Positions 2,595 through 60,185 of a stretch of DNA of 64,000 nt are shown here, in pieces. The stretch covers positions 22,320,001 to 22,384,000 of the forward strand of contig OZ024758.1 in NCBI GenBank assembly GCA_964016885.1. Direction: 5' to 3'. The position numbers and the translations under genes were made by a program. The notes beneath the pieces were generated by a model, which was given only the letters and a program-made list of their open reading frames with translations, did not search any database and had not been told where the DNA came from. This DNA comes from Eledone cirrhosa (taxonomy: Eukaryota). The number at the start of each line of letters is the position of its first letter. The first letter of the stretch is position 1.

Positions 2595-4170
2595 ATATCT
2601 TTTCTTCTTGGCTGGTTTAACCCAGGCTACAGAGACAAAGTCCCTTCACCACAACCTTGAGGTCCTGGATGTAGTCCTGGCCAGTGTCTTTGATCAGGTT
2701 GTCAATGTAAGTGTATTAGCATTTTCCTCTCCTTAGAATTCCTTGAAATCAGTTCCAAAGGACTAACTTGGAGGCGTCCAGTTGAGGGGGTTGCACACAA
2801 TGACCAGATATGCAGAGCCTTCTTTGCTTGATCTTTTCGCTGATTTTTGGCAGGTCTGCATAAAGGCATCTATTTGTCATATGTTGCTGCCATTTTACAT
2901 TAAAAACCATTTGTAGCATCCTTGTGTAGAGCCATTTGTAGCATCCTTGTGTAGAGCCATTTGTAGCATCCTTGTGTAGAGCCATTTGTAGCATCCTTGT
3001 GTAGAGCCATTTGTAGCATCCTTGTGTAGAGCCATTTGTAGCATCCTTGTGTAGAGCCATTTGTAGCATCCTTGTGTAGGGCCATTTGTAGCATCCTTGT
3101 GTAGAGCCATTTGTAGCATCCTTGTGTAGAGCCATTTGTAGCATCCTTGTGTAGAGCCATTTGTAGCATCCTTGTGTAGAGCCATTTGTAGCATCCTTGT
3201 GTAGAGCCATTTGTAGCATCCTTGTGTAGAGCCATTTGTAGCATCCTTGTGTAGAGCCATTTGTAGCATCCTTGTGTAGAGCCATTTGTAGCATCCTTGT
3301 GTAGAGCCATTTGTAGCATCCTTGTGTAGAGCCATTTGTAGCATCCTTGTGTAGAGCCATTTGTAGCATCCTTGTGTAGAGCCATTTGTAGCATCCTTGT
3401 GTAGAGCCATTTGTAGCATCCTTGTGTAGAGCCATTTGTAGCATCCTTGTGTAGAGCCATTTGTAGCATCCTTGTGTAGGGCCATTTGTAGCATCCTTGT
3501 GTAGAGCCATTTGTAGCATCCTTGTGTAGAGCCATTTGTAGCATCCTTGTGTAGAGCCATTTGTAGCATCCTTGTGTAGAGCCATTTGTAGCATCCTTGT
3601 GTAGAGCCATTTGTAGCATCCTTGTGTAGAGCCATTTGTAGCATCCTTGTGTAGAGCCATTTGTAGCATCCTTGTGTAGAGCCATTTGTAGCATCCTTGT
3701 GTAGAGCCATTTGTAGCATCCTTGTGTAGAGCCATTTGTAGCATCCTTGTGTAGGGCCATTTGTAGCATCCTTGTGTAGAGCCATTTGTAGCATCCTTGT
3801 GTAGAGCCATTTGTAGCATCCTTGTGTAGAGCCATTTGTAGCATCCTTGTGTAGAGCCATTTGTAGCATCCTTGTGTAGAGCCATTTGTAGCATCCTTGT
3901 GTAGAGCCATTTGTAGCATCCTTGTGTAGGGCCATTCGTAGCATCCTTGTGTAGAGCCATTCGTAGCATCCTTGTGTAGGGCCATTCGTAGCATCCTTGT
4001 GTAGAGCCATTCGTAGCATCCTTGTGTAGGGCCATTCGTAGCATCCTTGTGTAGAGCAATTCGTAGCATCCTTGTGTAGAGCAATTCGTAGCATCCTTGT
4101 GTAGCAGTTACTTAGCCCACTTTTTAATTTCTCAGTCAGTCTCCATGTTTCACTGCCATACAAATAACAT
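2595..4170 (-). mobile_element. Decayed RTE-clade LINE 3' fragment interrupted by a 25-bp array
   Basis: Translation LYGSETWRLT..CYTRMLR..NVKWQQHMTN..LY.DLPKISEKIKQRRL..GHC..LVLW..YIDNLIKDTG is typical of the region downstream of the RT in RTE elements; in-frame stops. Confidence 0.85.
2907..4106. repeat. Minisatellite, 25-bp unit gccatttgtagcatccttgtgtaga, about 48 copies
   Basis: Directly visible near-perfect tandem array. Confidence 0.97.
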
Positions 4171-9180: not shown

Positions 9181-9214
<34 letters not shown>

Positions 9215-9684
9215 CAAAGGAAATGTGGTAAGGAACCAGATGGACCATAACGCACTAAAGTACTCAATACTTCAATACTTAGGGTAGTAGAGTGGGTAAT
9301 AGGAACAAGTATGACATATATATACACACACACACACACACACAAGGTGAGCATAAAATCTTTCACTTTTTGTTTCATAGCTGACATTTTGTTATTGAAT
9401 ATTACAACTACTTCCTCTAGAAGAGAAAATGTAAAAACATGTTCAGAAAAACTTTAAACTTTAAATTTATAAATCAAAACAATTAAGCAAATAGTATTTG
9501 AGATATGTTATTTTATAATTGGGGAAAGACTTTATGCTCACCGTGTCTGTGTGTGTATATATATATATATATGAAAAAAAAAATAATATATATATATGTA
9601 AAAGGTAAACAGAAATAACAACATAATCGGTACAGTATATGGAAGGAATATATTAGGTTAACGCTTGAAATAGCAGGAAGAGGG

Positions 9685-13119: not shown

Positions 13120-13482
13120 ATCATCATCATCATCATTTTACGTTTACTTTTCCCTGCTTGCAAGGGTGGGACGGGAACTGATTCTGGCTTGATTTCTACA
13201 GCTGGATGCCCTTCCTAACACCAACCTCATTCACAGTGAGTGCTGGGTGCTTTTTTGCCGTGGCACCCCCACGACCACTTTGCAGTGGAATGATAGGGAC
13301 CACTTTGCAGTGGAATGATAGGGACCCCAGTCCTATCATCTCATTTCTACAGGTGAGTAAACTGGAGCAATGTGAAATAAAGTGTCTTGCTCAAGGAAAC
13401 AACACATCACCCAGTCTGAGAATTGAACTCACAACCTTTCGGTTGCAAGGCCAATGCTCTAACCACTAAGCCATGTGCCTCC
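13120..13482 (-). mobile_element. SINE family A, full length
   Basis: As other copies; short internal duplication at about 13273-13327. Confidence 0.9.
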
Positions 13483-14675: not shown

Positions 14676-14865
14676 TATACATATATATATATATATATGG
14701 TATACATATATATATATATATATGGTATACATATATATATATATGGTATACATATATATATGGTATACATATATATATATATATATGGTATACATATATA
14801 TATATATATATGGTATACATATATATATATATATATGGTATACATATATATATATATATATATAT
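13487..14865. repeat. Interrupted (TA)n satellite with GCTATAC/GGTATAC punctuation
   Basis: Directly visible. Confidence 0.95.
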
Positions 14866-14876
14866 TTATTAAAATA

Positions 14877-14981
14877 TAATCTGTTATTTTAATAAATATT
14901 TGCTCTACGGTTCTTATATATTTGATATATATTTTCCTTATCGAGCCCTCTTTGGATTTTAGTCTTCAATTTTATTATTAT

Positions 14982-15021
<40 letters not shown>

Positions 15022-15126
15022 ATAATAATAAATTTGAAGACTAAAATCCAAAGAGGGCTCGATAAGGAAAATATATATCAAATATATAAGAACCGTAGAG
15101 CAAATATTTATTAAAATAACAGATTA
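14877..15126. repeat. 250-bp near-perfect palindrome centred on (TA)n
   Basis: 108-bp arms with one mismatch seen. Confidence 0.95.
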
Positions 15127-15315
15127 AAGTTTAAGCAAAGAATCGCTGCTTTCACCCTTAACCGGATCTTCTGAATGCGACCATTATTTTTGGAGCCCAT
15201 CTGGATAGTGAATTGTTTATATTATTTTAATATCTCCACGTTTTTTTCTTTTTCTTTTTTCTCTCTCTCCGTCTTTTTTCTTTCTCTCCGTCTTTTTCTA
15301 ATTGTTCCTAACATT

Positions 15316-24075: not shown

Positions 24076-25687
24076 TAACCCTTTAGTGTTCAAACCGGCC
24101 AAAACCGGCCAGAGTTCTCTACCTATTTCTGTTGAAACTGGCTGTAACTGGTCGCTCATACTGATGTTAAGGTATTGTTCTCAAAATAAATACTTTCAAA
24201 ATCTCATAGATTCGATATTATGTGAGGTAATTATGTGAGGTAAAGCCTTTACCATGAAAATATAATAGTATATATAGAGTAATGTGAATGTTATGTGAGA
24301 TAATTATGTGAGGTAAAGCCTTTACCATGAAAATACAATAGTATATATAGAGTAATGTGAATGTTATGTGAGATAATTATGTGAGGTAAAGCCTTTACCA
24401 TGAAAATACAATAGTATATATAGAGTAATGTGAATGTTATGTGAGATAATTATGTGAAGTAAAGCCTTTACCATGAAAATACAATAGTATATATAGAGTA
24501 ATGTGAATGTTATGTGAGATAATTATGTGAGGTAAAGCCTTTACCATGAAAATACAATAGTATATATAGAGTAATGTGAATGTTATGTGAGATAATTATG
24601 TGAGGTAAAGCCTTTACCATGAAAATACAATAGTATATATAGAGTAATGTGAATGTTATGTGAGATAATTATGTGAAGTAAAGCCTTTACCATGAAAATA
24701 CAATAGTATATATAGAGTAATGTGAATGTTATGTGAGATAATTATGTGAGGTAAAGCCTTTACCATGAAAATACAATAGTATATATAGAGTAATGTGAAT
24801 GTTATGTGAGATAATTATGTGAGGTAAAGCCTTTACCATGAAAATACAATAGTATATATAGAGTAATGTGAATGTTATGTGAGATAATTATGTGAAGTAA
24901 AGCCTTTACCATGAAAATACAATAGTATATATAGAGTAATGTGAATGTTATGTGAGATAATTATGTGAGGTAAAGCCTTTACCATGAAAATACAATAGTA
25001 TATATAGAGTAATGTGAATGTTATGTGAGATAATTATGTGAGGTAAAGCCTTTACCATGAAAATACAATAGTATATATAGAGTAATGTGAATGTTATGTG
25101 AGATAATTATGTGAAGTAAAGCCTTTACCATGAAAATACAATAGTATATATAGAGTAATGTGAATATTATGTGAGATAATTATGTGAGGTAAAGCCTTTA
25201 CCATGAAAATACAATAGTATATATAGAGTAATGTGAATGTTATGTGAGATAATTATGTGAGGTAAAGCCTTTACCATGAAAATACAATAGTATATATAGA
25301 GTAATGTGAATGTTATGTGAGATAATTATGTGAGGTAAAGCCTTTACCATGAAAATACAATAGTAAATATAGAGTAATGTGAATGTTATGCGAGATAATT
25401 ATGTGAGGTAAAGCCTTTACCATGAAAATACAATAGTAAATATAGAGTAATGTGAATGTTATGTGAGATAATTATGTGAAGTAAAGCCTTTACCATGAAA
25501 ATACAATAGTAAATATAGAGTAATGTGAATGTTATGTGAGATAATTATGTGAGGTAAAGCCTTTACCATGAAAATACAATAGTATATATAGACTAATGTG
25601 AATGTTATGTGAGATATTATGTGAGGTAAAGCCTTTACCATGAAAATACAATAGTATATATAGAGTAATGTGAATGCTAAAGGGATA
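24076..25687. mobile_element. MITE family C expanded by an internal 73-bp x 20 tandem array
   Basis: Both TIRs retained; ccatgaaaa recurs every 73 bp from 24252 to 25638. Confidence 0.9.
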
Positions 25688-27833: not shown

Positions 27834-28991
27834 TATTTATCTACTTCATATTCTTCATAAATACATCCCTATATCACCGAATTGAAGTCAAATCTCCATC
27901 TTATAAACTCTTACACATATAAATTGGCAAATTCTAGGTTTGATTTGAAACGAAATTCCGATGATTTACAGAGCATGTTATCAAATAGTTGAAATATATA
28001 GTGTTCCCCAAAAATGCATACACTTTCATTAGGATGCTGTTGAAGTGCGTATACATTTTTGGAGGACACCCTGTATATACATGGGGAAGGAAATTCTGTC
28101 GATATTTGAGAAGAGGAAGGCCACACACACTCATACAAACATAAATAAAATATATACACAACGGAAGAGGCTATGTAGCCGGTAAGAGTGTCAAATATCA
28201 TGAGTTGCGGCCTTTTATGGTCTGAGTTTAGACAATTTGAATTCTTTTACACAATCTACTCATACATAGACACATTATATAAACTAATTATTACATATAC
28301 ACACATATTTGAATGATTGAAGAAGGAAGGGGCTGGTGAAACACTATAGCGATATGTGTGTTGCGTCCCTTTAGGGTTTACCGGCTACATAGCCTATTCG
28401 AAAGAAATTCTGTCGATATTTGATAAGAGGAATGCCACACGCATTCTCATACAACCACGAATAAAATATATATACAACACAACACAACACAACACAGCAC
28501 AGCACAGCACAGCACAGCACAGCACAACACAACACAACACAACACAACACAACACAACACAGCTTATCCATAGCGAAGCTGAGAAGGACAAAAGTTGTAT
28601 AACTTTGAAAGGCGATGCAGCTGTTGAATATATATTACCATTTTTTGGTTTCCTTCCTCATACAACGAATCTGTCATAATATACTATTAAATAAACAATA
28701 ATTCTGAAGAAATAATTGTAAGTAAATATAGCATTGAGGAAACGGGTTAGGTGAAACAGGAAGGGTCCAATTATGTCTAGATTCCATATATTGCCGTTAT
28801 TATGTAGTTGAAGAACAGTCGAGTTGCAAAGTGATGATGTCAAGGTCTTCAAGAAAAGTAGCAACAAAAAGTTATCTGTGCTTCATTTACGCTAAGATTT
28901 TCTCTCAGACATGGAATAATTTAAAGTTTTGCCGACAACTATAGCACGAAAATATGAGCACTATAAATATATTTCCTCAAAAATTTCTGAA

Positions 28992-29029
<38 letters not shown>

Positions 29030-29038
29030 TTAATATAG

Positions 29039-29093
29039 ATGAGATTCTACAGGACTAGAACTGTTTCATTCTTTAGAAATCATCAGGAATCTC

Positions 29094-29095
<2 letters not shown>
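29039..29095 (-). ncRNA. Type I hammerhead ribozyme, family A, copy 1
   Basis: AUGAGAUUC-CUGAUGA-UUUCUAAAGAAU-GAA-ACAG-UUCUAGUC-CUGU-A/GAAUCUCAU: 9-bp stem I, 4-bp stem III, intact core, weak stem II. Confidence 0.8.
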
Positions 29096-29144
<49 letters not shown>

Positions 29145-29153
29145 TTAATATAG

Positions 29154-29208
29154 ATGAGATTCTACAGGACTAGAACTGTTTCATTCTTTAGAAATCATCA
29201 GGAATCTC

Positions 29209-29210
<2 letters not shown>
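29154..29210 (-). ncRNA. Type I hammerhead ribozyme, family A, copy 2
   Basis: Identical to copy 1. Confidence 0.8.
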
Positions 29211-29253
<43 letters not shown>

Positions 29254-29262
29254 TTAATATAG

Positions 29263-29317
29263 ATGAGATTCTACAGGACTAGAACTGTTTCATTCTTTAG
29301 AAATCATCAGGAATCTC

Positions 29318-29319
<2 letters not shown>
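29263..29319 (-). ncRNA. Type I hammerhead ribozyme, family A, copy 3
   Basis: Identical to copy 1. Confidence 0.8.
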
Positions 29320-29379
<60 letters not shown>

Positions 29380-29509
29380 TAGAAGGGGTATTTAATTTGT
29401 TGGAAGTCCGACAAATATAAATGTTTATAACTGATTTAGAGCACTCAACAGTTTACTGGAGTAAATATTCAATATTAAATAAATGGAAACTTTGGAATCA
29501 TTGTGTATG

Positions 29510-29608
<99 letters not shown>

Positions 29609-29655
29609 AAACTTTGGAATCATTGTGTGTGTATGTATGTATATATATATATATA

Positions 29656-29750
29656 GTTCTACAGGATTAGAACTGTTTCATTCGGGGGGCATCATCAGGA
29701 AAGCCCCCGAGGATTTCCTCCGAAGGAAACAGTTCTTGTCCCGTAGAAGC
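29656..29750. ncRNA. Back-to-back pair of degenerate family A hammerheads
   Basis: Minus: UUC-CUGAUGA..GAAACAG..CUGUA-GAA; plus: CCGAGGA..GAAACAG..CCGUA-GAAGC. Confidence 0.55.
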
Positions 29751-30180
29751 CATTTCTATATTAAATATTTATACTCTGCTATGTATTGAGTACCTTACTT
29801 ACTGTGGTTACCTCCGATTCAACCCGGGATAAATATTTTATATATATAAATCAAAGGAAAAAAATATATGTATATATATGGTGCTTTCTCTTTCTATAAA
29901 TACATATATCTTTTTCATTTGATATATTACTGCTCAGTAAGCCTATTGAGCTTGCTTATTGAGAAACACAAACATTCTAACATATTTAATATGTTTTGAT
30001 TCATTACACACAGACACACACACACACACACAGACACACACACACATATATATCGAAGCATCTTCATAGATGCTTCGATAAAAAAATAATACACACACAT
30101 ATATATATATATATAGGAATGGAGCGAAAGAAATTAGCGAGGAAAAACACACACACATATACATATATATATACATACAC

Positions 30181-33554: not shown

Positions 33555-33796
33555 AAAGTTATATTTAAAATTGTTGGGTTACAACTAGTAAATATTTATA
33601 ACTGATATAAAAGCACTCGACAAGTATTTGGAGTATATTTACGATATTAAATAAATGTTTTCTGTCTTTCTTTCCTTTTTTTCTCTCTTTCTTTCTCTCT
33701 GTGTACAATTTTTTTCACTGCCAATTCAACTTTTCAAATACAAGTCGATGTTGTACGGTATGTCAAATCTATTTATCTATAAAACTGTTTATATTG

Positions 33797-33862: not shown

Positions 33863-34164
33863 AATATGGTTTTATAAATATAGTTTCCATTTATTTAATA
33901 TCGTATATATATATATATATATTTATTAAAATATAATCTGTAATTTTAATAAATATTTGCTCTACGGTTCTTATATATTTGATATATATTTTCCTTATCG
34001 AGCCCTCTTTGGATTTTAGTCTTCAATTTTATTATTATTACTATATATATATATATATATATATATAACGAAGGAAATGTGGTAAGGAACCAGGTGGACC
34101 ATAACGCACCAAAGTACTCAATACTTAGGGTAGTAGAGTGGGTAATAGGAACGAGTAGGACCCC

Positions 34165-34222
34165 GTCCAGAATTAGCCGTCGAAACGGCTTGAGCTCAGC
34201 CGTCGGGGTCCTACTCGTTCCT

Positions 34223-34223
<1 letters not shown>
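34165..34223 (+). ncRNA. 5'-truncated hammerhead, family D (CUGANGA absent)
   Basis: GAA-ACGGCU-UGAGCUC-AGCCGU-C/GGGGUC; second copy at 36204-36260 with stem II GUC..GAC. Confidence 0.5.
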
Positions 34224-34264
<41 letters not shown>

Positions 34265-34319
34265 GTTATTCCGGGTTGAATCGGAGGTAACCACAGTAAG
34301 TAAGGTACTCAATACATAG

Positions 34320-34366
34320 CAGATGATTTCTAATGAATGAAACAGTTCTAGTCCTGTAGAATCTCA

Positions 34367-34367
<1 letters not shown>
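34320..34367 (+). ncRNA. Family A hammerhead, 5' side replaced by an inverted element tail
   Basis: CAGAUGA-UUUCUAAUGAAU-GAAACAG..CUGUA-GAAUCUCAU. Confidence 0.55.
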
Positions 34368-34401
<34 letters not shown>

Positions 34402-36059: not shown

Positions 36060-36436
36060 TACATATATATTTATATATGCATATATATATACATATATAT
36101 GTATATGTATATATATACATATATATTTGTATATGTATATATATATACATATATATGTATATACATATATACATATATATATATACACACATATATATAT
36201 ATAGTCCAGAAATAGACGTCGAAACGGCTTGAGCTCTGCCGTCGGGGTCATGTATTTTCCTATATATATATATGTATATATTAGAAATATAAGCTATCGC
36301 CGTATTTTGACTAAAGAAATTATTTAGCCTGATAGTGGGGTTAAGAACCCTCGGAGAAATGGAAAAAGATGAGTATTGTACGTCAATACTTATCTTTTTT
36401 CCATTTCAAACTCACTCGCTGTTTCGAAAATATTCT

Positions 36437-38501: not shown

Positions 38502-39607
38502 TGTAGAGGCACGTGGCCTAGTGGTAAGGGTGTTGGACTTACGACCATGATGCCGTGGGTTTGATTCCTTGAGTGTTGTGTTCTTGAGCAAAACATTTCG
38601 TTTCACGTTGCTCCAGTATACTCAGCTGTAAATGAGTACCAGCAATAACTGGGGGGTTAACCCTGCGATGGACTGGCGTCCTGTCCAGGAGGGAGTCTTG
38701 TACTCTCAGTCGCTTCATGCCATGAAACCGAGATAAGCACCGGCCAAATGAGCCTTCTGGCTTAAGACAGACTTTAACCCTGCAATGGACTGGCGTCCTG
38801 TCCAGGGAGAAGTTTTGTACTCTCAGTCGCTTCATGCCATGAAACTGAGATAAGCACCGGCCAAATGAGCCTTCTGGCTTAAGACAGACTTTAACCCTGC
38901 AATGGACTGGCGTCCTGTCCAGGGAGAAGTTTTGTACTCTCAGTCGCTTCACGCCATGAAACTGAGATAAGCACCGGCCAAATGAGCTTTCTGGCTTAAG
39001 ACAGACTTTAACCCTGCAATGGATTGGCGTCCTGTCCAGGGAGAAGTTTTGTACTCTCAGTCGCTTCATGCCATGAAACCGAGATAAGCACCGGCCAAAT
39101 GAGCCTTCTGGCTTAAGACAGACTTTAACCCTGCAATGGACTGGCGTCCTGTCCAGGGAAAAGTTTTGTACTCTCAGTCGCTTCATGCCATGAAACCGAG
39201 ATAAGCACCGGCCAAATGAGCCTTCTGGCTTAAGACAGACTTTAACCCTGCGATGGACTGGCGTCCTGTCCAGGGAGAAGTTTTGTACTCTCAGTCGCTT
39301 CACGCCATGAAACCGAGATAAGCACCGGCCAAATGAGCCTTCTGGCTTAAGACAGACTTTAACTCTGCAATGGATTGGCGTCCTGTCCAGGGGGGAGTCT
39401 TGTACTCTCAGTCGCTTCATGCCATGAAACCGAGATAAGCACCGGCCAAATGAGCCTTCTGGCTTAAGACAGACTTTAACCCTGCAATGGACTGGCGTCC
39501 TGTCCAGGGGGGAGTCTTGTACTCTCAGTCGCTTCATGCCATGAAACCGAGATAAGCACCGGCCAAATGAGCCTTCTGGCTTAAGACAGACTTTACTCTT
39601 TTTAGAC
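38502..39607 (+). mobile_element. SINE family D with its 117-bp 3' segment repeated 8 times
   Basis: tRNA-like head at 38505; units start 38657+117n; TSD tttattacgatca at 38489-38501 and 39608-39620; monomeric copy at 48945-49235. Confidence 0.9.
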
Positions 39608-49298: not shown

Positions 49299-50008
49299 GA
49301 ATGTCTGTCTGTATGTATGTATGCAGACGATAAGCGCAAACTGGTCATACGGGCATTTGGACAGAATTAACAATAACAAAAAATGAAAAAAATGTTTAAA
49401 AATAAAAGGAAAAAAATTATAAAATCCTATTAATGTTTGTATAGTAAAAAAAAAAAACGAGGGGGAAAAAAATTAACTGACGAAAGTAAGTGAGGAGGGG
49501 GGGGGGGGGTTGAAAGCGACGGGGGCTCGTCTTAGATACGCCTAACGGCATTTCCATATCTAGCTTTACCACTTTATTTTTCCTTCCTGACATTTCTCAA
49601 ATATATATATATATATATATAAGAATTTATTTACTTTCTATAACTGTGGTTTCTTTCCGAATTCCTTCGGAAAACCATCATTAATCACACACACACATAT
49701 AAGTTTTAATATCTATATATATATATATAGGTTTTTTTTTCAAAATGCCCCACACGGGTAAAACTATAAAGAAAAGAAATTGAAAATTCAACTGGAGTCT
49801 TTGAAGAATATTTTTAATTATAGTTTTACCCGTGAGGGGCATTTTGAAAAAACCTATGTATATATATTAAAACTTTTATACTCTGCTATGTATTGAGTAC
49901 CTTACTTGCTGTGGTTACCTCCGATTCAACCTGGAATAACATATATATATATATATATATACCTTCCATATATTGTACCGATTGTGTTGTTATTTCTGTT
50001 TACCTTTT

Positions 50009-50041
<33 letters not shown>

Positions 50042-52030
50042 CTCCAAATATTTGTCGAGTGCTTTTATATCAGTTATAAATATTTACTAGTTGTAACCCA
50101 ACAATTTTAAATATAACTTTCCATATATTATGCTTATTTTTTGTTTATAGAATCAATTTTATAAGTAAAATATATCCGAGAGTAAAAATACTTCTCACTT
50201 GTTTCCTCTGGAATGCAGGGAACGATTGGTTGGGTAGCTGGAATTATCGTTGAGATCAATAGTAAACAATGTTGACGAATGCACTCTCATACACTTGCTT
50301 ATGGCTGTCCATTGAATTCGATAATAGCAATCATTTCCTTTATTCATCGATCATTTGACGACTGTATGTTCCAATTTTTGATGTACAACATCGATTGCAG
50401 ACGAGGCCATGTAAATATTTAGGCTAGAGGAGTCAAGTATATAATTCTTTTCTCGTTTCTGCTGGTAGTATTGAGTGACCTTCTTCTCCTCCGTATAGTG
50501 CCGGATTTAGGACAAATGAGGCCCTGTGCTAGTTAAGTTATGAGGCCCGGAAGAAGGAAAACAAATTTGGGGGGGGGGGGGGGGGGGGGGCTGGAAGATG
50601 CCCCCCCCCCCCCCCCCCCCCCCCCTTCCCCGGCCAACGGGGCCCTGTCCTTAAGCGCACCTAAGCATAATGGTAAATCCGGCACTGCCTCTATATCTTC
50701 AATCTCTCTCCGACAGTGAAACAAAGTGAGAGTCAAGATAAAAAGCACAATACCACAATGAGAATTCCAACACCAAAAACAGGCGCCAAGCAACAATGTA
50801 TGCTAGCTACTGTATTGTTTGATGCAGAATTTCCCAAATCTTTTCAAACACAGAAACCTTTTTGGTTCAGAAACTTTTGGGGAGAACCCCAAAGTCTAAT
50901 ACTGCTATATGGTCATAATAGAAATACCGTATTTCCCGGTGCCGAAGACGTTTTGTCCTCGAGAACGCACCCAAATTTTGACAACCAAAAATTTGAAAAA
51001 AAATAATAAACAACCTTCGGCCTCCAGGACACACGGTAGATTTTTGAGACTTATTTTAGGGAAAAAGTAGCGTATTCGACGCTGGGAAATAGGGTATATT
51101 TCTCTACTTTTTTTTCACGGAACGCTTAGGCTCTGTGAAACCCACTTTGGGAACCACTGACCTACACCAATCACGTTAAAATACTGCACTCCGTGAAACC
51201 AGGTCACACTGAGTGCAGCAATATCTACTCTATAGATATTGAGAGTTGTTAAATGCCTGGGCAGGTTTATGAAGCTGTCGAAACCAAGGAGTGTCTAAAT
51301 AATCAAAGCTTTAAGCCTGCCTGGTATATTATGTTTATGGTTTTTACGGCCGCTACTTGGAGTGTCTTGACAGGCGTGGTTTCCTGTGCAGGAATTGAAC
51401 TGAGTGGGTGTCTTTTAATCTGCCTTCGTTGGCTATTTCCTATTTGTAGTGAACAGCGAGGCCATTAAGTATAGCTAATAAGTCCTGCAATTATACAGAA
51501 ATGTGTATAGACAGATAGATTGAATAGTAGGTTGATAAACAGATAGGACAATAACCTTCGGCTAATTTCTTGAAAGAATGATTAGAACATCTGACTGATA
51601 AAATGACAAGTCAGTCAATCATATAGGTGGCATCCCCACAGCCCCGGCGGACAGAATGGAGAAGGCGTTTCCCCGGTGGACGGCAAGGGAGACGCGCTGG
51701 AAACGCCATTCCATCTCGCGATGCTCACACCTGCGGCTGGCCAGCTCAGCGCCTATGCTGGTAGGAGAAACTCCCACTCAAAGTCAACTGTCAACGATTG
51801 TTGCCCAGTCTTACTAACGGGTTGAGTTATCACAAGAAGCTTCCAACATATTCAAACCTGCTCTGGTCGCCAGACTTTCGATCACCGTCAGATCACTCGC
51901 CCTTCATATCACTGGCCCTGTACTTAAATTATAAACATGATTAACCCTTTAAACATTTAAACATTTTAACGTTCAAACTGGCCATAACCAGCTGCCCATA
52001 CTGATGTTAGCGTATTGTTCTCAAAATAAA

Positions 52031-55960: not shown

Positions 55961-58917
55961 TCTCTCTCTCTCTCTATACATATATCTATATCTATATATC
56001 ATCATCATTTAACGTACATCTTCCACACTAGCACGGGTTGGACGGTTTGTCCCACTTGAGGCAGGTTTTCTACAGCTGGATGCCCTTCTTTACACCAACC
56101 ACATTTGCAGTGTGGACTGGGAGCCTTTTCACCATGTCTCCTACACGTCCACCTTACAGTGTGGACTGAGTGCTTTTTGTTGTGTCACCTACACGACCAC
56201 TTTACAGTGGACAGAAATGGGAGGATGGAGTAGGGTGTGGGGGTGGGGTGTATATTGGGTTAAGAGATGCCTACTGACTGTAGGTTTAAGTTTGTATGCT
56301 TTAAAGAGGTTGGAAGGGCATTCAGACATTAAAAAAATTGCCAAACAAAGGGAGGACCCTTCAGTTTTGTCAAGGATGCTTGGTTTACTTCTATTGCAGC
56401 TTCCTCTCACTGGAATTTCCTGGCACTTCTTCATTCAGCAATCATCATCCTTGCACATCATATATCTATACTGATGCAGTCTTCTCTCTTGCACACATTT
56501 AATTCCTCTTATGCCAAGTTTTTGTCTCAGCTCGTCTACACTTCACCATTCATAAATATTAACATCCCACACCCACGGAAGTAAACTCACTTCCTTTCTC
56601 TATAGCCTTTGCATATCATCTGCATTCACTGCTCATGTCTCGCTTCTATGCAATATCAAACTTTGCATGCAGGCATTATACAGTCAGTCTTTTGTTCATG
56701 GAGAGAAACATTTTATCTTCAGAAGATGTAGCTCTCAGAAAATTTTCCCTCCTGTTCTTTTGTATTCTAGCTTTTCTATTGCTAATTAGAGGAGGGGAGA
56801 AACGTTTTATTGTCAGCAGACCTCAAAAATGTTTCCATCTTGTCCTTATTTTAACTTCTTTATTGCTAATTAGAGGAGGGTAGAAACATTTTATCATCAG
56901 CAGAGGAAGTAGCTCTTTAAAATGTTTCCCATTGGTTCTTATTCTAACTTCTCTATTACTAATTAGAGGAGGAGGTTCTTATAGTTATGGTATTTCCTGA
57001 TTTACTTCCTCTTCATAATTCAAAATATCTGGAATCTACAATAAAGGCATTGGTAACAGTTGGGGTGTGGTGGCAGGAGGTGATGTTTCCTATGAAGTAA
57101 TGTTTGTCAACTATTTGTATTCTGCAATCACAACTTTGTTTTCTAATCTAAATGTGATGTCAGATTACTGTTAACTCTTTTGATACCAGACTACCCGAAA
57201 CAGCTGAAAACCGCCCTTGGGTCTGTGATACAGAACTCTTTGTTTCAAAATGTTTGTGTTTATTTTAAAAAAACATCCACCATAATTTTATATATGGACC
57301 ACGTTTAAGCAATGTTCCAAATACCAACTTATTAATGACTAAGTTAGTTATTGTACTAACCCCACCCCCAAATTATTGATCTTCTTCATCCACTAATTCC
57401 TGAGAGGGTCATGGGGGAAGAGTCGTCAAACACGCCTTCCAGTGGGTCCTGTCAGAAGCAACGGTCTCCAACTGATCCAGCTAGATCCCCAAGTGAGACT
57501 AGCCAAGCTCATGGATGTTATCCAACCATCTTTCTCGGGGTCTACCCCTGGGTCTCCTGCTGGTTGGTTTTGTCCATAAAATCTGTCCAACAATTCTTTC
57601 CTGAGACATTCTAACCACATGCCCATAGTACTGGATTATTTTCAAAATTATTTGAAAGCCCCAGGGACCATATTTCATTAAAAGTATGGTAACAATAAAG
57701 TTAAGCTATGCAGATAACTAGGATCATGTAATCTCTTTAGAAAACAATATATAAATTAATGAAAAAAAGGTTTACACAAAAAAGGAAACCTTTAATGGAG
57801 TTGATTCTGTTGTAAGCATTTCAAACATACTGTCAATTTACTCCCAGCTCACATTTAGGTTACAAACATTGACCTGAAGATGTTCCACGTAGGTATCAAC
57901 TCTAAAAGTCTCATCAGTCTGTAGAAGGTTTGTACTGTCACTCCTTGTCTGACTAAATTGTTAACTCTTTAATGATTGTTTTTTCTAATGAAATACACTC
58001 TATTTCAATTAAGTAATGAGCAATTTTGAGGAATTTACTAAAATTATTAATTATTTCATTACTAAAATTGTAACTTAATATATGGTCCTTGTGTAAAATT
58101 TTGTTAAAAGATTTTAATTTTAATAGGAACCCTTTAAAATGGAGACGAGATGAGCTCCACCAGGTTTAACCCTTTAGAATTTAAACTGGCCATATCCAGC
58201 CAGAATTCTCTCACCTCTTTCTGTTCAAACCAGCTATAGCTGGCCACTCATACTGATGTTAAGGTATTGTTCTCAAAATCTCATAGATTTGATATTATGT
58301 GAGATAATTATGTGAGGTAAAGTCTTTACCATGAAAATACAATAGTAAATATAGAGTAATGTAAATGCTAGAAGGTTAAGAATGCTTTAGAAACACCATA
58401 TCACAATATGGCGTTCCTACAACTCCCTTAGGAGTTACGGGACCAAACAAAAGTTAAATTAAAATAGTTTTTATCAGTAATGTACTTTAAAAATGTAAAT
58501 GAACATTTTCCACCCTTGTATCCTTTGACATTTATGAGTAATCTATTCGTTGTTATGTTTAAAATTCTGACAATGTTATTATCAGACCAAGGCACCATAA
58601 GTTTAAAGTTTGAAGGCAACACAATTCAGATGAATTATAAAAAAAATTACTGTAATATTAAATACTTTCTTTGCCCCTTTGTAATTTTCATGTGTTATGA
58701 GTAGTAATCTACATGTTTTTATGTTGAAAATCCAGACAATTTTATCATCAGATGCAGACAGCACGAGTTTAAAGTTTGAATAAAAGGTAACACAGTTCAC
58801 CTGAATTATATTATGATATCAAATATTTTATTTTATTTTAATTTTTAACCCTTTCGCTACCAACCGGCTCAAAACCACCCCTGGTTCTATGGAACAAAAC
58901 CATGCTTTTCACTCTTG

Positions 58918-60185
58918 AAAGGTTGATGTTATTCCTCTTCAAAGTGGTCTTTAAACCACTTCTTTGGTCCTTCAGTCAGGCAATGACCATGGAGTAGCTG
59001 ACCATAGAGGATCGTGCAAGGGAGACGCTAGTTTCAGACGTGTTCACTACATGTCCGAACCATCTCAGTTGATATTGGTCTAGTGTGGAGACAATGCTGG
59101 GAGTTACAGGTTCAGTGGAGGATTTCTGTGTGTGCAGTTTTATCTCACTAGGTGACTGAAAAGGCCTTCTGGTGAAACTGTATATTAATGGCTTTGTGGA
59201 CCTTAGTATATAAAGTTTATGTGGTACATGTCTCTCTCGTACCCACAGCAGAGCATGGAAACGCAGACTACCCGGTAGACAAGAACCTTGTTATGAAGCC
59301 TTGAGACGGTTGTTTAGAAAGATCCTCTTTCTGCGCCTTCAAAAAGCAACAGAGGTCTGTCTGAGGTAATTTCAAATTTTCTCTTCCAGTGTGCAGTCAT
59401 TGGAAATTATCCTGCCAAGGTATTTGAAAGAATATGACTGTGAATACACTTTATCGAGTAACGTTACTCCAAAGACCCTTTGGAGAAATCCCATTTCTCC
59501 AAAGGGTCTTTGGAGAAACGTTACTCGATAAAGTGCATAGCCTGGAGAGCAGGGAGTCACTTCAGGTAGAGCCGCTACTTCTCCGAAATGAGAGATCACA
59601 GCTATTGAGAGATCATATACTAGGAGCATATGGTTAGAACGTTTCAGGAAAGAATCATTGGACAGATTTTATGGGCAAAACCAACCAGTAGGACACCTAG
59701 GGGTATACCCCCGAGCAAGATGGTTGGATAATATTCATGAGCTTGGCTGGTCATGCTTGGGGATCTAGCCGGACCAGTTGGAGACGGCTGCTTCTGACAG
59801 GATCTGCTGGAAGGAGTGTTTGAGGACTTTGCCCCTACCTACACCCTCCCAGGAATAAGTGGACGAAGAAGAAGAGAAGAAGAAGGTATTTGAATTGAGT
59901 GGATGTGGTGGTCAGTTGTGGCTGTTTTATTGAGAAAGATGGGAAGAGAGAGGGTGATGTAGTGTGCCCATGACTGATGACTTTAGTTTTCTGGACGTGA
60001 ACAGTCAGGTTCAACCTTTTATAAGCAGTAACTGCTGCTGGGGTGACGGCTTTTAGGGCCTTTGTTGTTTGAATTGCCAGAGCGTAGTTATCAGCATATT
60101 GTAGTTCAGTGGTCTCTCCATATCTAAGCATAGTGGTAGTCTGCAGTATTTAGATGTTGAAAAGGTTCCCATCAAGAATAAAATT
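58918..60185 (-). mobile_element. RTE/BovB-like RT fragment interrupted by another RTE insertion
   Basis: DGNLFN..ELQYADN.AL..KTKV..FKYLG.IIS; 12-bp TSD aaggtatttgaa at 59417-59428 and 59883-59894. Confidence 0.8.

What the first reader, a model, noticed from the sequence alone, without database searches (positions are those of the whole stretch)
29027..29320. Tandem trimer of identical complete hammerheads spaced only by variable (TA)n: possible ~110-nt retrozyme-like RNA
Seen: three identical ~70-bp units at periods of 115 and 109 bp, each an intact hammerhead on the minus strand with predicted GUA cleavage between 29048 and 29047 in copy 1. Inference: a read-through transcript would self-cut into 109-115 nt monomers made almost entirely of ribozyme plus a self-pairing (UA)n, able to circularise. 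To my knowledge this is shorter than the metazoan retrozyme monomers usually described. Caveat: stem II opens with U-U rather than G-C, and ordinary DNA slippage could also give the trimer.
Basis: partly seen in the sequence, partly recalled or inferred. Interest (0 to 1): 0.8.

Follow-up and report, generated by a model that had tools for sequence, protein, structure and literature searches.

The report
Tripled Penelope-type hammerhead in TA repeat
Three identical copies of a hammerhead self-cutting RNA motif sit head to tail in a TA repeat of an animal genome; each is a clipped piece of a very abundant repeat family that likely spreads like Penelope-type jumping genes, the trio likely arose by ordinary local DNA duplication, and it is predicted to cut in pairs if the region is ever transcribed, which is untested.

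Summary
In detail: three identical 70-nt type I hammerhead units at 115- and 109-bp periods, separated by pure (TA)n. The unit is not a stand-alone element. It is the hammerhead part of a family of roughly 10^4-10^5 copies, cut off at both ends. About 8,200 raw reads show a conserved core, a conserved stem II U-U, a conserved loop-3 palindrome and a hypervariable loop 2. Two nearby copies are head-to-head, 5'-truncated, with a tail on one arm only, inserted in (TA)n: the Penelope-like footprint. The family's own tandems have a 77-78-nt period without TA. No TA-spaced tandem was listed in the reads, and three ribozyme-free microsatellite-spaced arrays lie in the same window, so local DNA duplication is the likeliest origin. 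Folding favours a double hammerhead over two monomers by about 5-6 kcal/mol, so a read-through RNA could plausibly release 109/115-nt monomers. Transcription, cleavage and copy number in long reads are untested. The size lies within the 51-972 bp catalogued for animal retrozymes. The scan noted similar TA-inserted hammerhead elements elsewhere in this genome. New member of a known kind.

The parts
28996..29026 (.). pure (TA)n tract, 31 nt, left border (downstream of the last hammerhead on the minus strand)
29027..29096 (-). hammerhead unit 1: stem I 5' 29095-29087; CUGAUGA 29086-29080; stem II 29079-29076/29071-29068 (U-U at 29079/29068); loop 2 29075-29072; GAAA 29067-29064; stem III 29064-29061/29052-29049; loop 3 29060-29053 with CUAG palindrome 29058-29055; predicted cut 29048|29047; stem I 3' 29047-29039
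29096..29141 (.). pure (TA)n spacer, 46 nt; predicted to form the hairpin that closes the inner stem I of a double hammerhead
29142..29211 (-). hammerhead unit 2, identical; predicted cut 29163|29162
29211..29250 (.). pure (TA)n spacer, 40 nt
29251..29320 (-). hammerhead unit 3, identical; predicted cut 29272|29271
29320..29377 (.). pure (TA)n tract, 58 nt, right border; also the end of the neighbouring second-family fragment
29048..29162 (-). predicted 115-nt monomer between cut sites (inferred)
29163..29271 (-). predicted 109-nt monomer between cut sites (inferred)
29389..29491 (-). 5'-truncated tail of a second, unrelated TA-associated hammerhead family; the trimer is nested in the TA tract at its end
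29655..29833 (.). same family, two-armed head-to-head copy: left arm (minus, damaged stem II, no tail, ends in TA) and right arm (plus, 5'-truncated, with the about 70-nt tail)
34244..34397 (.). same family, two-armed copy: inverted tail arm joined to a 5'-truncated hammerhead arm (98% identical to the unit over 52 nt), TA on both sides
49863..49940 (+). same family, tail-only fragment between TA tracts; begins with the same letters on which the trimer unit ends

Best explanation
Each 70-nt unit is a type I hammerhead clipped at both ends out of a very abundant repeat family, likely spread into (TA)n by a Penelope-like reverse transcriptase, and the three copies likely arose when one such insertion was duplicated at the DNA level through its flanking TA tracts. 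Shown: motif anatomy, identity of the copies, family membership, truncation at both ends, and two-armed TA-flanked sister copies nearby. Inferred steps: (1) target-primed insertion of a family RNA end into a TA tract; (2) 5' truncation at stem I with a fold-back that lengthened stem I to 9 bp and removed the family's native upstream sequence; (3) unequal exchange or slippage between the TA tracts copied unit plus TA twice, with the TA lengths drifting. If a passing minus-strand transcript reads through, neighbouring units are predicted to pair through the loop-3 palindrome into a double hammerhead and cut out 109/115-nt monomers at a modest rate. That would be a by-product, not the way the family spreads.
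For: Family: 3,954 and 4,233 raw reads from two same-species runs were laid on one unit. Summed contig depth in X1 is about 2.4 million on the core against 7.35 on the unique flank (not a copy number). There are four insertions of the family in this 64 kb. Truncation: 489 and 696 reads continue past the unit's 3' end into the tail; 762 and 772 continue upstream of 29092 into other family sequence; depth falls from about 1,240-1,290 at 29090-92 to about 21 at 29093-95 in both runs. Constraint: listed variants are 20-51% per position in loop 2, at most 7% in the core, none listed at U-U, and at most 2.8% in loop 3. A second subfamily has compensatory stem I changes. Penelope footprint: head-to-head 5'-truncated arms with a tail on one side at 29655-29833 and 34244-34397, and many opposite-strand joints in reads, as described in PMC8557442. 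Its supplement lists (TA)n as the target of octopus Naiad and Hydra elements. Fold-back: the plus strand from 29087 repeats the minus strand from the cut site for 9 letters, 3 beyond the native stem. Local duplication: 3 of the 4 microsatellite-spaced arrays found among 76 short cores in the window carry no hammerhead, and a 43-nt piece plus TA tract is duplicated at 29485/29607, 170 bp away. The family's own tandems have a 77-78-nt period and no TA (71 and 23 reads). Dimer: double hammerhead 4.1-4.2 kcal/mol above the ensemble against 9.6-10.3 for two monomers.
Against: No autonomous Penelope-like ORF was linked to the family: no genome is held, and none was seen among 146 of 198 window ORFs scanned. 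The control arrays have shorter, lower-complexity cores (21-36 nt) and mixed spacers, so they are imperfect controls. The raw reads are RAD-seq (reduced representation), contigs break in long TA, and 4 joints and 19 joint-letter rows were not shown, so the missing TA-spaced joint is weak evidence. All three copies are complete and identical, as rolling-circle copying could also give. Run X5 (kind not on record) has depth 33 through 29093-29099 while it has none on the unique flank; I cannot explain this, and it could mean that the junction is multicopy or expressed. Reads under 82% identity and variants near read ends are not counted, which flatters conservation, most of all in the 5' strand of stem I.
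Confidence: 0.65

Rival explanations
1. True mini-retrozyme: a 110-nt hammerhead-plus-(UA)n RNA circle was copied round and round by a Penelope-like reverse transcriptase and pasted as a trimer.
For: Three complete identical units. The predicted circles fold into a rod in which (UA)n caps stem I and the core is predicted not to form, which would protect the circle. The double-hammerhead fold is favoured in multimers. The array meets the Li et al. definition. The X5 depth on the junction is unexplained.
Against: The trimer's 5' junction is in about 21 reads against about 1,240-1,290 just inside the unit. No TA-spaced go-back joint was listed. The spacers differ by 6 nt. The array begins and ends in TA, without the second arm or tail seen in the two-armed sister copies. 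The unit lacks the family's upstream sequence. Only 1 of 9 predicted Xenopus dimers cleaved in vitro.
Confidence: 0.15
2. Dead relic: same origin as the best explanation, but the RNA would not cut at a useful rate even if it were made, because the core misfolds and the native loop 1 is lost.
For: The monomer hammerhead fold has a predicted probability of about 0.001; an alternative hairpin takes over stems II and III. (UA)n tracts can pair with one another in many registers. Animal PLE hammerheads showed low cleavage even as dimers and trimers (PMC4209133).
Against: The unit carries the commonest listed family letter at every position from 29027 to 29092. The energy model gives no credit for core tertiary contacts (own knowledge). 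The dimer fold is within about 2 kcal/mol of the ensemble per core. A U-U hammerhead cleaves in axolotl.
Confidence: 0.12
3. Assembly artefact: one unit was expanded to three at the TA tracts.
For: The copies are identical and bounded by long TA tracts. No contig in the four runs laid spans the stretch, and the tool skipped 28986-29390 as repeat.
Against: The window has no N and resolves many longer tandem arrays with internal variation, as long-read assemblies do (inference). The spacer lengths differ.
Confidence: 0.07

Closest known systems
Hammerheads in the pseudo-LTR / 3' ends of Penelope-like elements (Cervera and de la Pena 2014, PMC4209133, parts 1-2 of 4 read; Craig et al. 2021, PMC8557442, passages and supplement searches)
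   Same: Type I hammerhead with a palindromic loop 3 built for dimer cleavage; thousands of dispersed truncated copies; opposite-strand pairs; one-sided tail; (TA)n target.
   Different: Stem III is a full 4 bp and stem II is short and opens with U-U, where the minimal PLE motifs have a long helix II and G-C. The tail is about 70 nt against 30-40. No autonomous ORF is linked. The hammerhead listed for Hydra-1_Obim in the supplement is a different sequence.
Animal non-LTR retrozymes (Cervera and de la Pena 2020, PMC7229834, parts 2-4 of 6 read; Li, Clavereau, Pollet 2026, 10.64898/2026.07.22.740005, parts 1-3 of 5 read)
   Same: Head-to-tail non-coding units with one type I hammerhead each; low GC; dimers and trimers common; proposed origin from PLE ends by local tandem amplification.
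   Different: About 40% of the period is variable target microsatellite. The TA-spaced unit was not seen as a dispersed family. It is shorter than the circles shown by experiment (about 220-390 nt). No RNA evidence.
Axolotl HHR_Amex2 (PMC7229834)
   Same: U-U at the base of helix II; weak as a monomer (22% in 1 h), much better as a dimer.
   Different: It sits in a 350-bp unit with about 60,000 copies and shown circular RNA; its helix III has 2 bp.

Membership tests
Type I hammerhead ribozyme | Core CUGANGA, GAAA and NUH cut triplet in type I order | tested here: met
Type I hammerhead ribozyme | Three helices, supported by variation among relatives | tested here: met
   9, 3 and 4 pairs; loop 2 variable and stems conserved; compensatory stem I in a second subfamily
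Type I hammerhead ribozyme | G10.1-C11.1 closing pair (usual, not universal) | tested here: not met
   U-U, conserved across the family; precedent HHR_Amex2
Type I hammerhead ribozyme | Loop 1 - loop 2 tertiary contact | tested here: inconclusive
   native sequence upstream of stem I is replaced in the trimer; loop 2 is hypervariable in the family
Type I hammerhead ribozyme | Match to an Rfam hammerhead model at the gathering score | tested here: not met
   HH9 14.8 bits against 52
Type I hammerhead ribozyme | Self-cleavage | not testable with these tools
   energy calculations only
Non-LTR retrozyme | Two or more consecutive non-coding tandem units, each with a complete type I hammerhead, folding below -5 kcal/mol (Li et al. 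working definition) | tested here: met
Non-LTR retrozyme | Unit length in the known range | tested here: inconclusive
   below 150-450 bp; within 51-972 bp
Non-LTR retrozyme | The same monomer recurs as a mobile family at many loci | tested here: inconclusive
   the hammerhead recurs, but the TA-spaced unit was not listed among read joints and its 5' junction is rare; RAD-seq and cut tables limit this
Non-LTR retrozyme | Expressed as linear and circular monomer RNA | not testable with these tools
   no run on record as RNA was available
Penelope-like element end or non-autonomous derivative | Hammerhead close to the 3' end; copies 5'-truncated | tested here: met
Penelope-like element end or non-autonomous derivative | Inverted head-to-head arms with a tail on one side; partial tandems | tested here: met
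   29655-29833 and 34244-34397; opposite-strand and 77-78-nt go-back joints
Penelope-like element end or non-autonomous derivative | Microsatellite (TA)n insertion bias | tested here: met
   4 of 4 insertions in the window have TA-repeat or TA-rich borders
Penelope-like element end or non-autonomous derivative | Sequence link to an RT plus GIY-YIG element | not testable with these tools
   no genome held; no PLE domain in 146 of 198 window ORFs; family motifs not found in a family context in the Craig supplement (line breaks can hide short matches)

The most novel reading that the evidence does not exclude
A snapshot of retrozyme birth at minimal size. A Penelope-type end trimmed to the bare hammerhead was multiplied through its microsatellite target. 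The (UA)n target now closes the inner stem I of a double hammerhead, so read-through RNA is cut in pairs into 109/115-nt monomers that close into cleavage-resistant circles about half the size of any animal retrozyme circle shown by experiment in the papers read, with captured target DNA as a structural part.
Probability: 0.12. Interest if true: 0.6.

Novelty: new member of a known kind. Interest (0 to 1): 0.27.

Why it matters
As read here it is an ordinary by-product of a hammerhead-bearing Penelope-type family, and a neat example of the route from PLE end to local tandem that Li et al. 2026 propose. It offers a cheap natural construct for testing dimer-only cleavage and the lower size limit of ribozyme-made circles. 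If a 110-nt circle were found in vivo, it would show that target microsatellite can be captured as a working part of a new retrozyme. The family's own 77-78-nt hammerhead tandems, seen in raw reads, are the better candidate for very small self-cut RNAs.

Tried and rejected
No whole genome is held, so no genome-wide multimer search was possible. No RNA holder listed; no conclusion on expression. Laying contigs over the whole array gave no cover in 28986-29390 because repeats are skipped; no conclusion on copy number. An exact 27-nt family motif gave 0 matches in metagenome contigs and 0 in viral contigs. Rfam found no hammerhead at the gathering score; its miRNA hits are (TA)n artefacts. Pfam on 146 of 198 complex ORFs of 55 aa or more (52 left out by eye, mostly in tandem repeats or other repeats) gave 5 sub-threshold hits, among them a LINE-type RT remnant at 59838-60149 and a WD40-like piece at 58606-58818. 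The WD40-like piece had no longer homologue, so no host gene or transcription direction could be set. The sigma-70 promoter scan does not apply to an animal genome and gave fewer sites than shuffles. Sequence look-ups in earlier findings gave nothing, nor did the near look-up. Three independent insertions rejected: both junctions are identical in all copies. U-U as damage rejected. Literature searches listed no paper whose title or abstract opening describes this family or TA-spaced hammerhead tandems; the octopus repeat paper PMC13282606 has no occurrence of 'ribozyme', 'hammerhead' or 'retrozyme' in its main text. Lunse et al. 2017 (PMC5785218) is known to me only by its title in a reference list; it is not held. 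Supplements of the bioRxiv preprint and of PMC7229834 and PMC4209133 were not read and may list similar short units.

Full report
Observation. The three units at 29027-29096, 29142-29211 and 29251-29320 are identical, at periods of 115 and 109 bp, and are bordered by pure (TA)n tracts of 31, 46, 40 and 58 nt. On the minus strand each reads as a type I hammerhead: a 9-bp stem I, CUGAUGA, a stem II of U-U plus three pairs, GAAA, a 4-bp stem III with an 8-nt loop, and a GUA site at 29048|29047 in copy 1. My descriptor found 5 hits in the window against a mean of 0.01 in 200 shuffles. Rfam does not recognise it (HH9 14.8 bits, gathering 52). The window is AT-rich, microsatellite-rich animal DNA. 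That it is octopus-like rests on my recall of its short repeats and on other notes of the scan; I did not test it. No whole genome is held.

The unit is part of a larger family. BLAST within the window finds three more insertions: 29655-29833, 34244-34397 and 49863-49940. Together they show that the unit's 3' end normally runs on into a tail of about 70 nt before (TA)n. A contig of run X4 joins the two directly (table 7). On one unit, 3,954 and 4,233 raw reads of two same-species RAD-seq runs were laid. Summed contig depth in X1 is about 2.4 million on the core against 7.35 on the unique flank. That is not a copy number, but with four insertions in 64 kb it points to 10^4-10^5 copies (inference). 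Of those reads, 489 and 696 continue into the tail. The depth at 29024-29026 implies that several hundred more run into TA at the same point as the trimer (inference), so this is a common family end. Upstream, 762 and 772 reads leave the unit at 29092 for other family sequence, and depth drops from about 1,240-1,290 to about 21 at 29093-29095. The trimer's 5' end is therefore rare. It looks like a fold-back: the plus strand from 29087 repeats the minus strand from the cut site for nine letters, three more than the native stem.

The hammerhead is conserved as a structure. Summed over both raw-read runs, listed variants reach 20-51% at each of the four loop-2 positions, at most 7% in CUGAUGA and GAAA, none at the U-U, and at most 2.8% in loop 3, including its CUAG palindrome. 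A second subfamily has compensatory changes in stem I. These figures leave out reads under 82% identity, variants under 2% and variants near read ends. So the U-U is not damage. Axolotl HHR_Amex2 has the same mismatch and cleaves 22% in an hour as a monomer and far better as a dimer (PMC7229834).

How the family moves (inferred). The copies at 29655-29833 and 34244-34397 are each two 5'-truncated arms joined head to head, one with the tail and one without, bordered by TA repeats or TA-rich sequence. Reads show many opposite-strand joints. Craig et al. 2021 describe these marks for Penelope-like elements: 5' truncation, inverted copies, a one-sided tail and microsatellite bias. Their supplement gives (TA)n as the target of octopus Naiad and Hydra elements. 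The family also makes its own head-to-tail tandems, with a 77-78-nt period and no TA (71 reads from 18 starts in X19; 23 from 7 in X20), like the tandem hammerheads reported in PLEs. I could not link the family to an autonomous ORF, so 'Penelope-driven' rests on the footprint alone.

Origin of the trimer. Identical junctions in all three copies mean that one insertion was copied. For DNA-level duplication: the spacer looks like target DNA and varies in length; the array has no second arm or tail; no TA-spaced joint was listed in the reads; 3 of 4 microsatellite-spaced arrays in the window have no ribozyme; and a 43-nt piece with its TA tract is duplicated 170 bp away. Against it: the controls have shorter, simpler cores; the reads are reduced-representation and the joint tables were cut; complete identical copies fit rolling-circle copying too; and run X5, whose kind is not on record, has depth 33 across the junction 29093-29099 with none on the unique flank, which I cannot explain. 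An assembly expansion was not excluded.

What an RNA would do (predicted). A single unit folds stem I but misfolds the core; the hammerhead fold lies 4.0 kcal/mol above the ensemble. Stem III with loop 3 is self-complementary (-12.8 kcal/mol as a duplex). In a two-unit RNA the double hammerhead lies 4.1-4.2 kcal/mol above the ensemble, against 9.6-10.3 for two monomeric folds, and the (UA)n spacer closes the inner stem I as a hairpin. This is the dimer mode described for animal and PLE hammerheads (PMC4209133). A read-through RNA could thus release 109- and 115-nt monomers, and their circles are predicted to be rods with an unformed core. However, PLE hammerheads cleaved weakly even as dimers and trimers, only 1 of 9 predicted Xenopus dimers cleaved, the unit has lost its upstream family sequence, and no host gene was found in the window.

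Comparison and novelty. The array meets the working definition of a non-LTR retrozyme. Experimentally shown animal circles are about 220-390 nt, but catalogued consensus lengths run from 51 to 972 bp, with a mean of 98 bp in the one sarcopterygian genome sampled. The same preprint proposes that PLE ends give rise to retrozymes by local tandem amplification, which is what I infer here. It works like a PLE dimer hammerhead and fits the retrozyme definition by form; membership as a mobile, expressed retrozyme is unshown. My searches found no description of this family, so it is a new member of a known kind. Earlier notes of the scan on other pieces of this genome reach similar readings for TA-inserted hammerhead elements. 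My reading was recorded before I saw them, and they are not independent support.

Verdict. Real motif, ordinary origin most likely (0.65), with a small chance (about 0.12) that it yields an unusually small circular RNA. Interest 0.27.

Noticed in passing
reads laid on window 29024-29099: The family forms head-to-tail hammerhead tandems with a 77-78-nt period and no microsatellite (71 and 23 raw reads), shorter than the unit in the finding; array length unknown.
   Followed up: partly
window 11268(-), 15610(+), 30654(+), 33805(+), 36657(+); tails at 29389-29491, 33562-33657, 50035-50113: A second, unrelated TA-associated type I hammerhead family with a long stem II and a palindromic AT-only stem III; 2 of 5 copies pass my descriptor; high summed depth on its tail.
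   Followed up: partly
window 34060-34223, related pieces at 9188-9315 and 36204-36291: A third TA-flanked fold-back element with GUC-GAAAC ahead of CUGA-like letters; by eye it may be one of the re-ordered hammerheads that other notes of the scan describe.
   Followed up: no
window 44993 (-): Solo minimal hammerhead-like motif with a G-C-rich stem II and a very short stem III; it did not pass my descriptor.
   Followed up: no
run X5 on window 29024-29099: Run of unrecorded kind from the same species: its subfamily and loop-2 mix differs from X1, and it has depth 33 across the trimer-type 5' junction with no cover on the unique flank.
   Followed up: no
window 14847-15134 and 33904-34067: A 140-160-nt AT-rich repeat present as an inverted pair around a TA tract and again, 99% identical, 19 kb away.
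   Followed up: no
window 2907-4104, 24218-25676, 38657-39595: Young minisatellites: 25 bp x 48 inside a LINE-like remnant, 73 bp x 20 and 117 bp x 8.
   Followed up: no
window 58520-58818 (-): Two diverged copies of a WD40-like coding piece (Pfam E 0.0019, below cut-off); no longer homologue found; possibly a decayed exon pair.
   Followed up: partly
window 13412-13475 (-): Marginal tRNA-like match (29.4 bits), probably a tRNA-derived SINE head.
   Followed up: no
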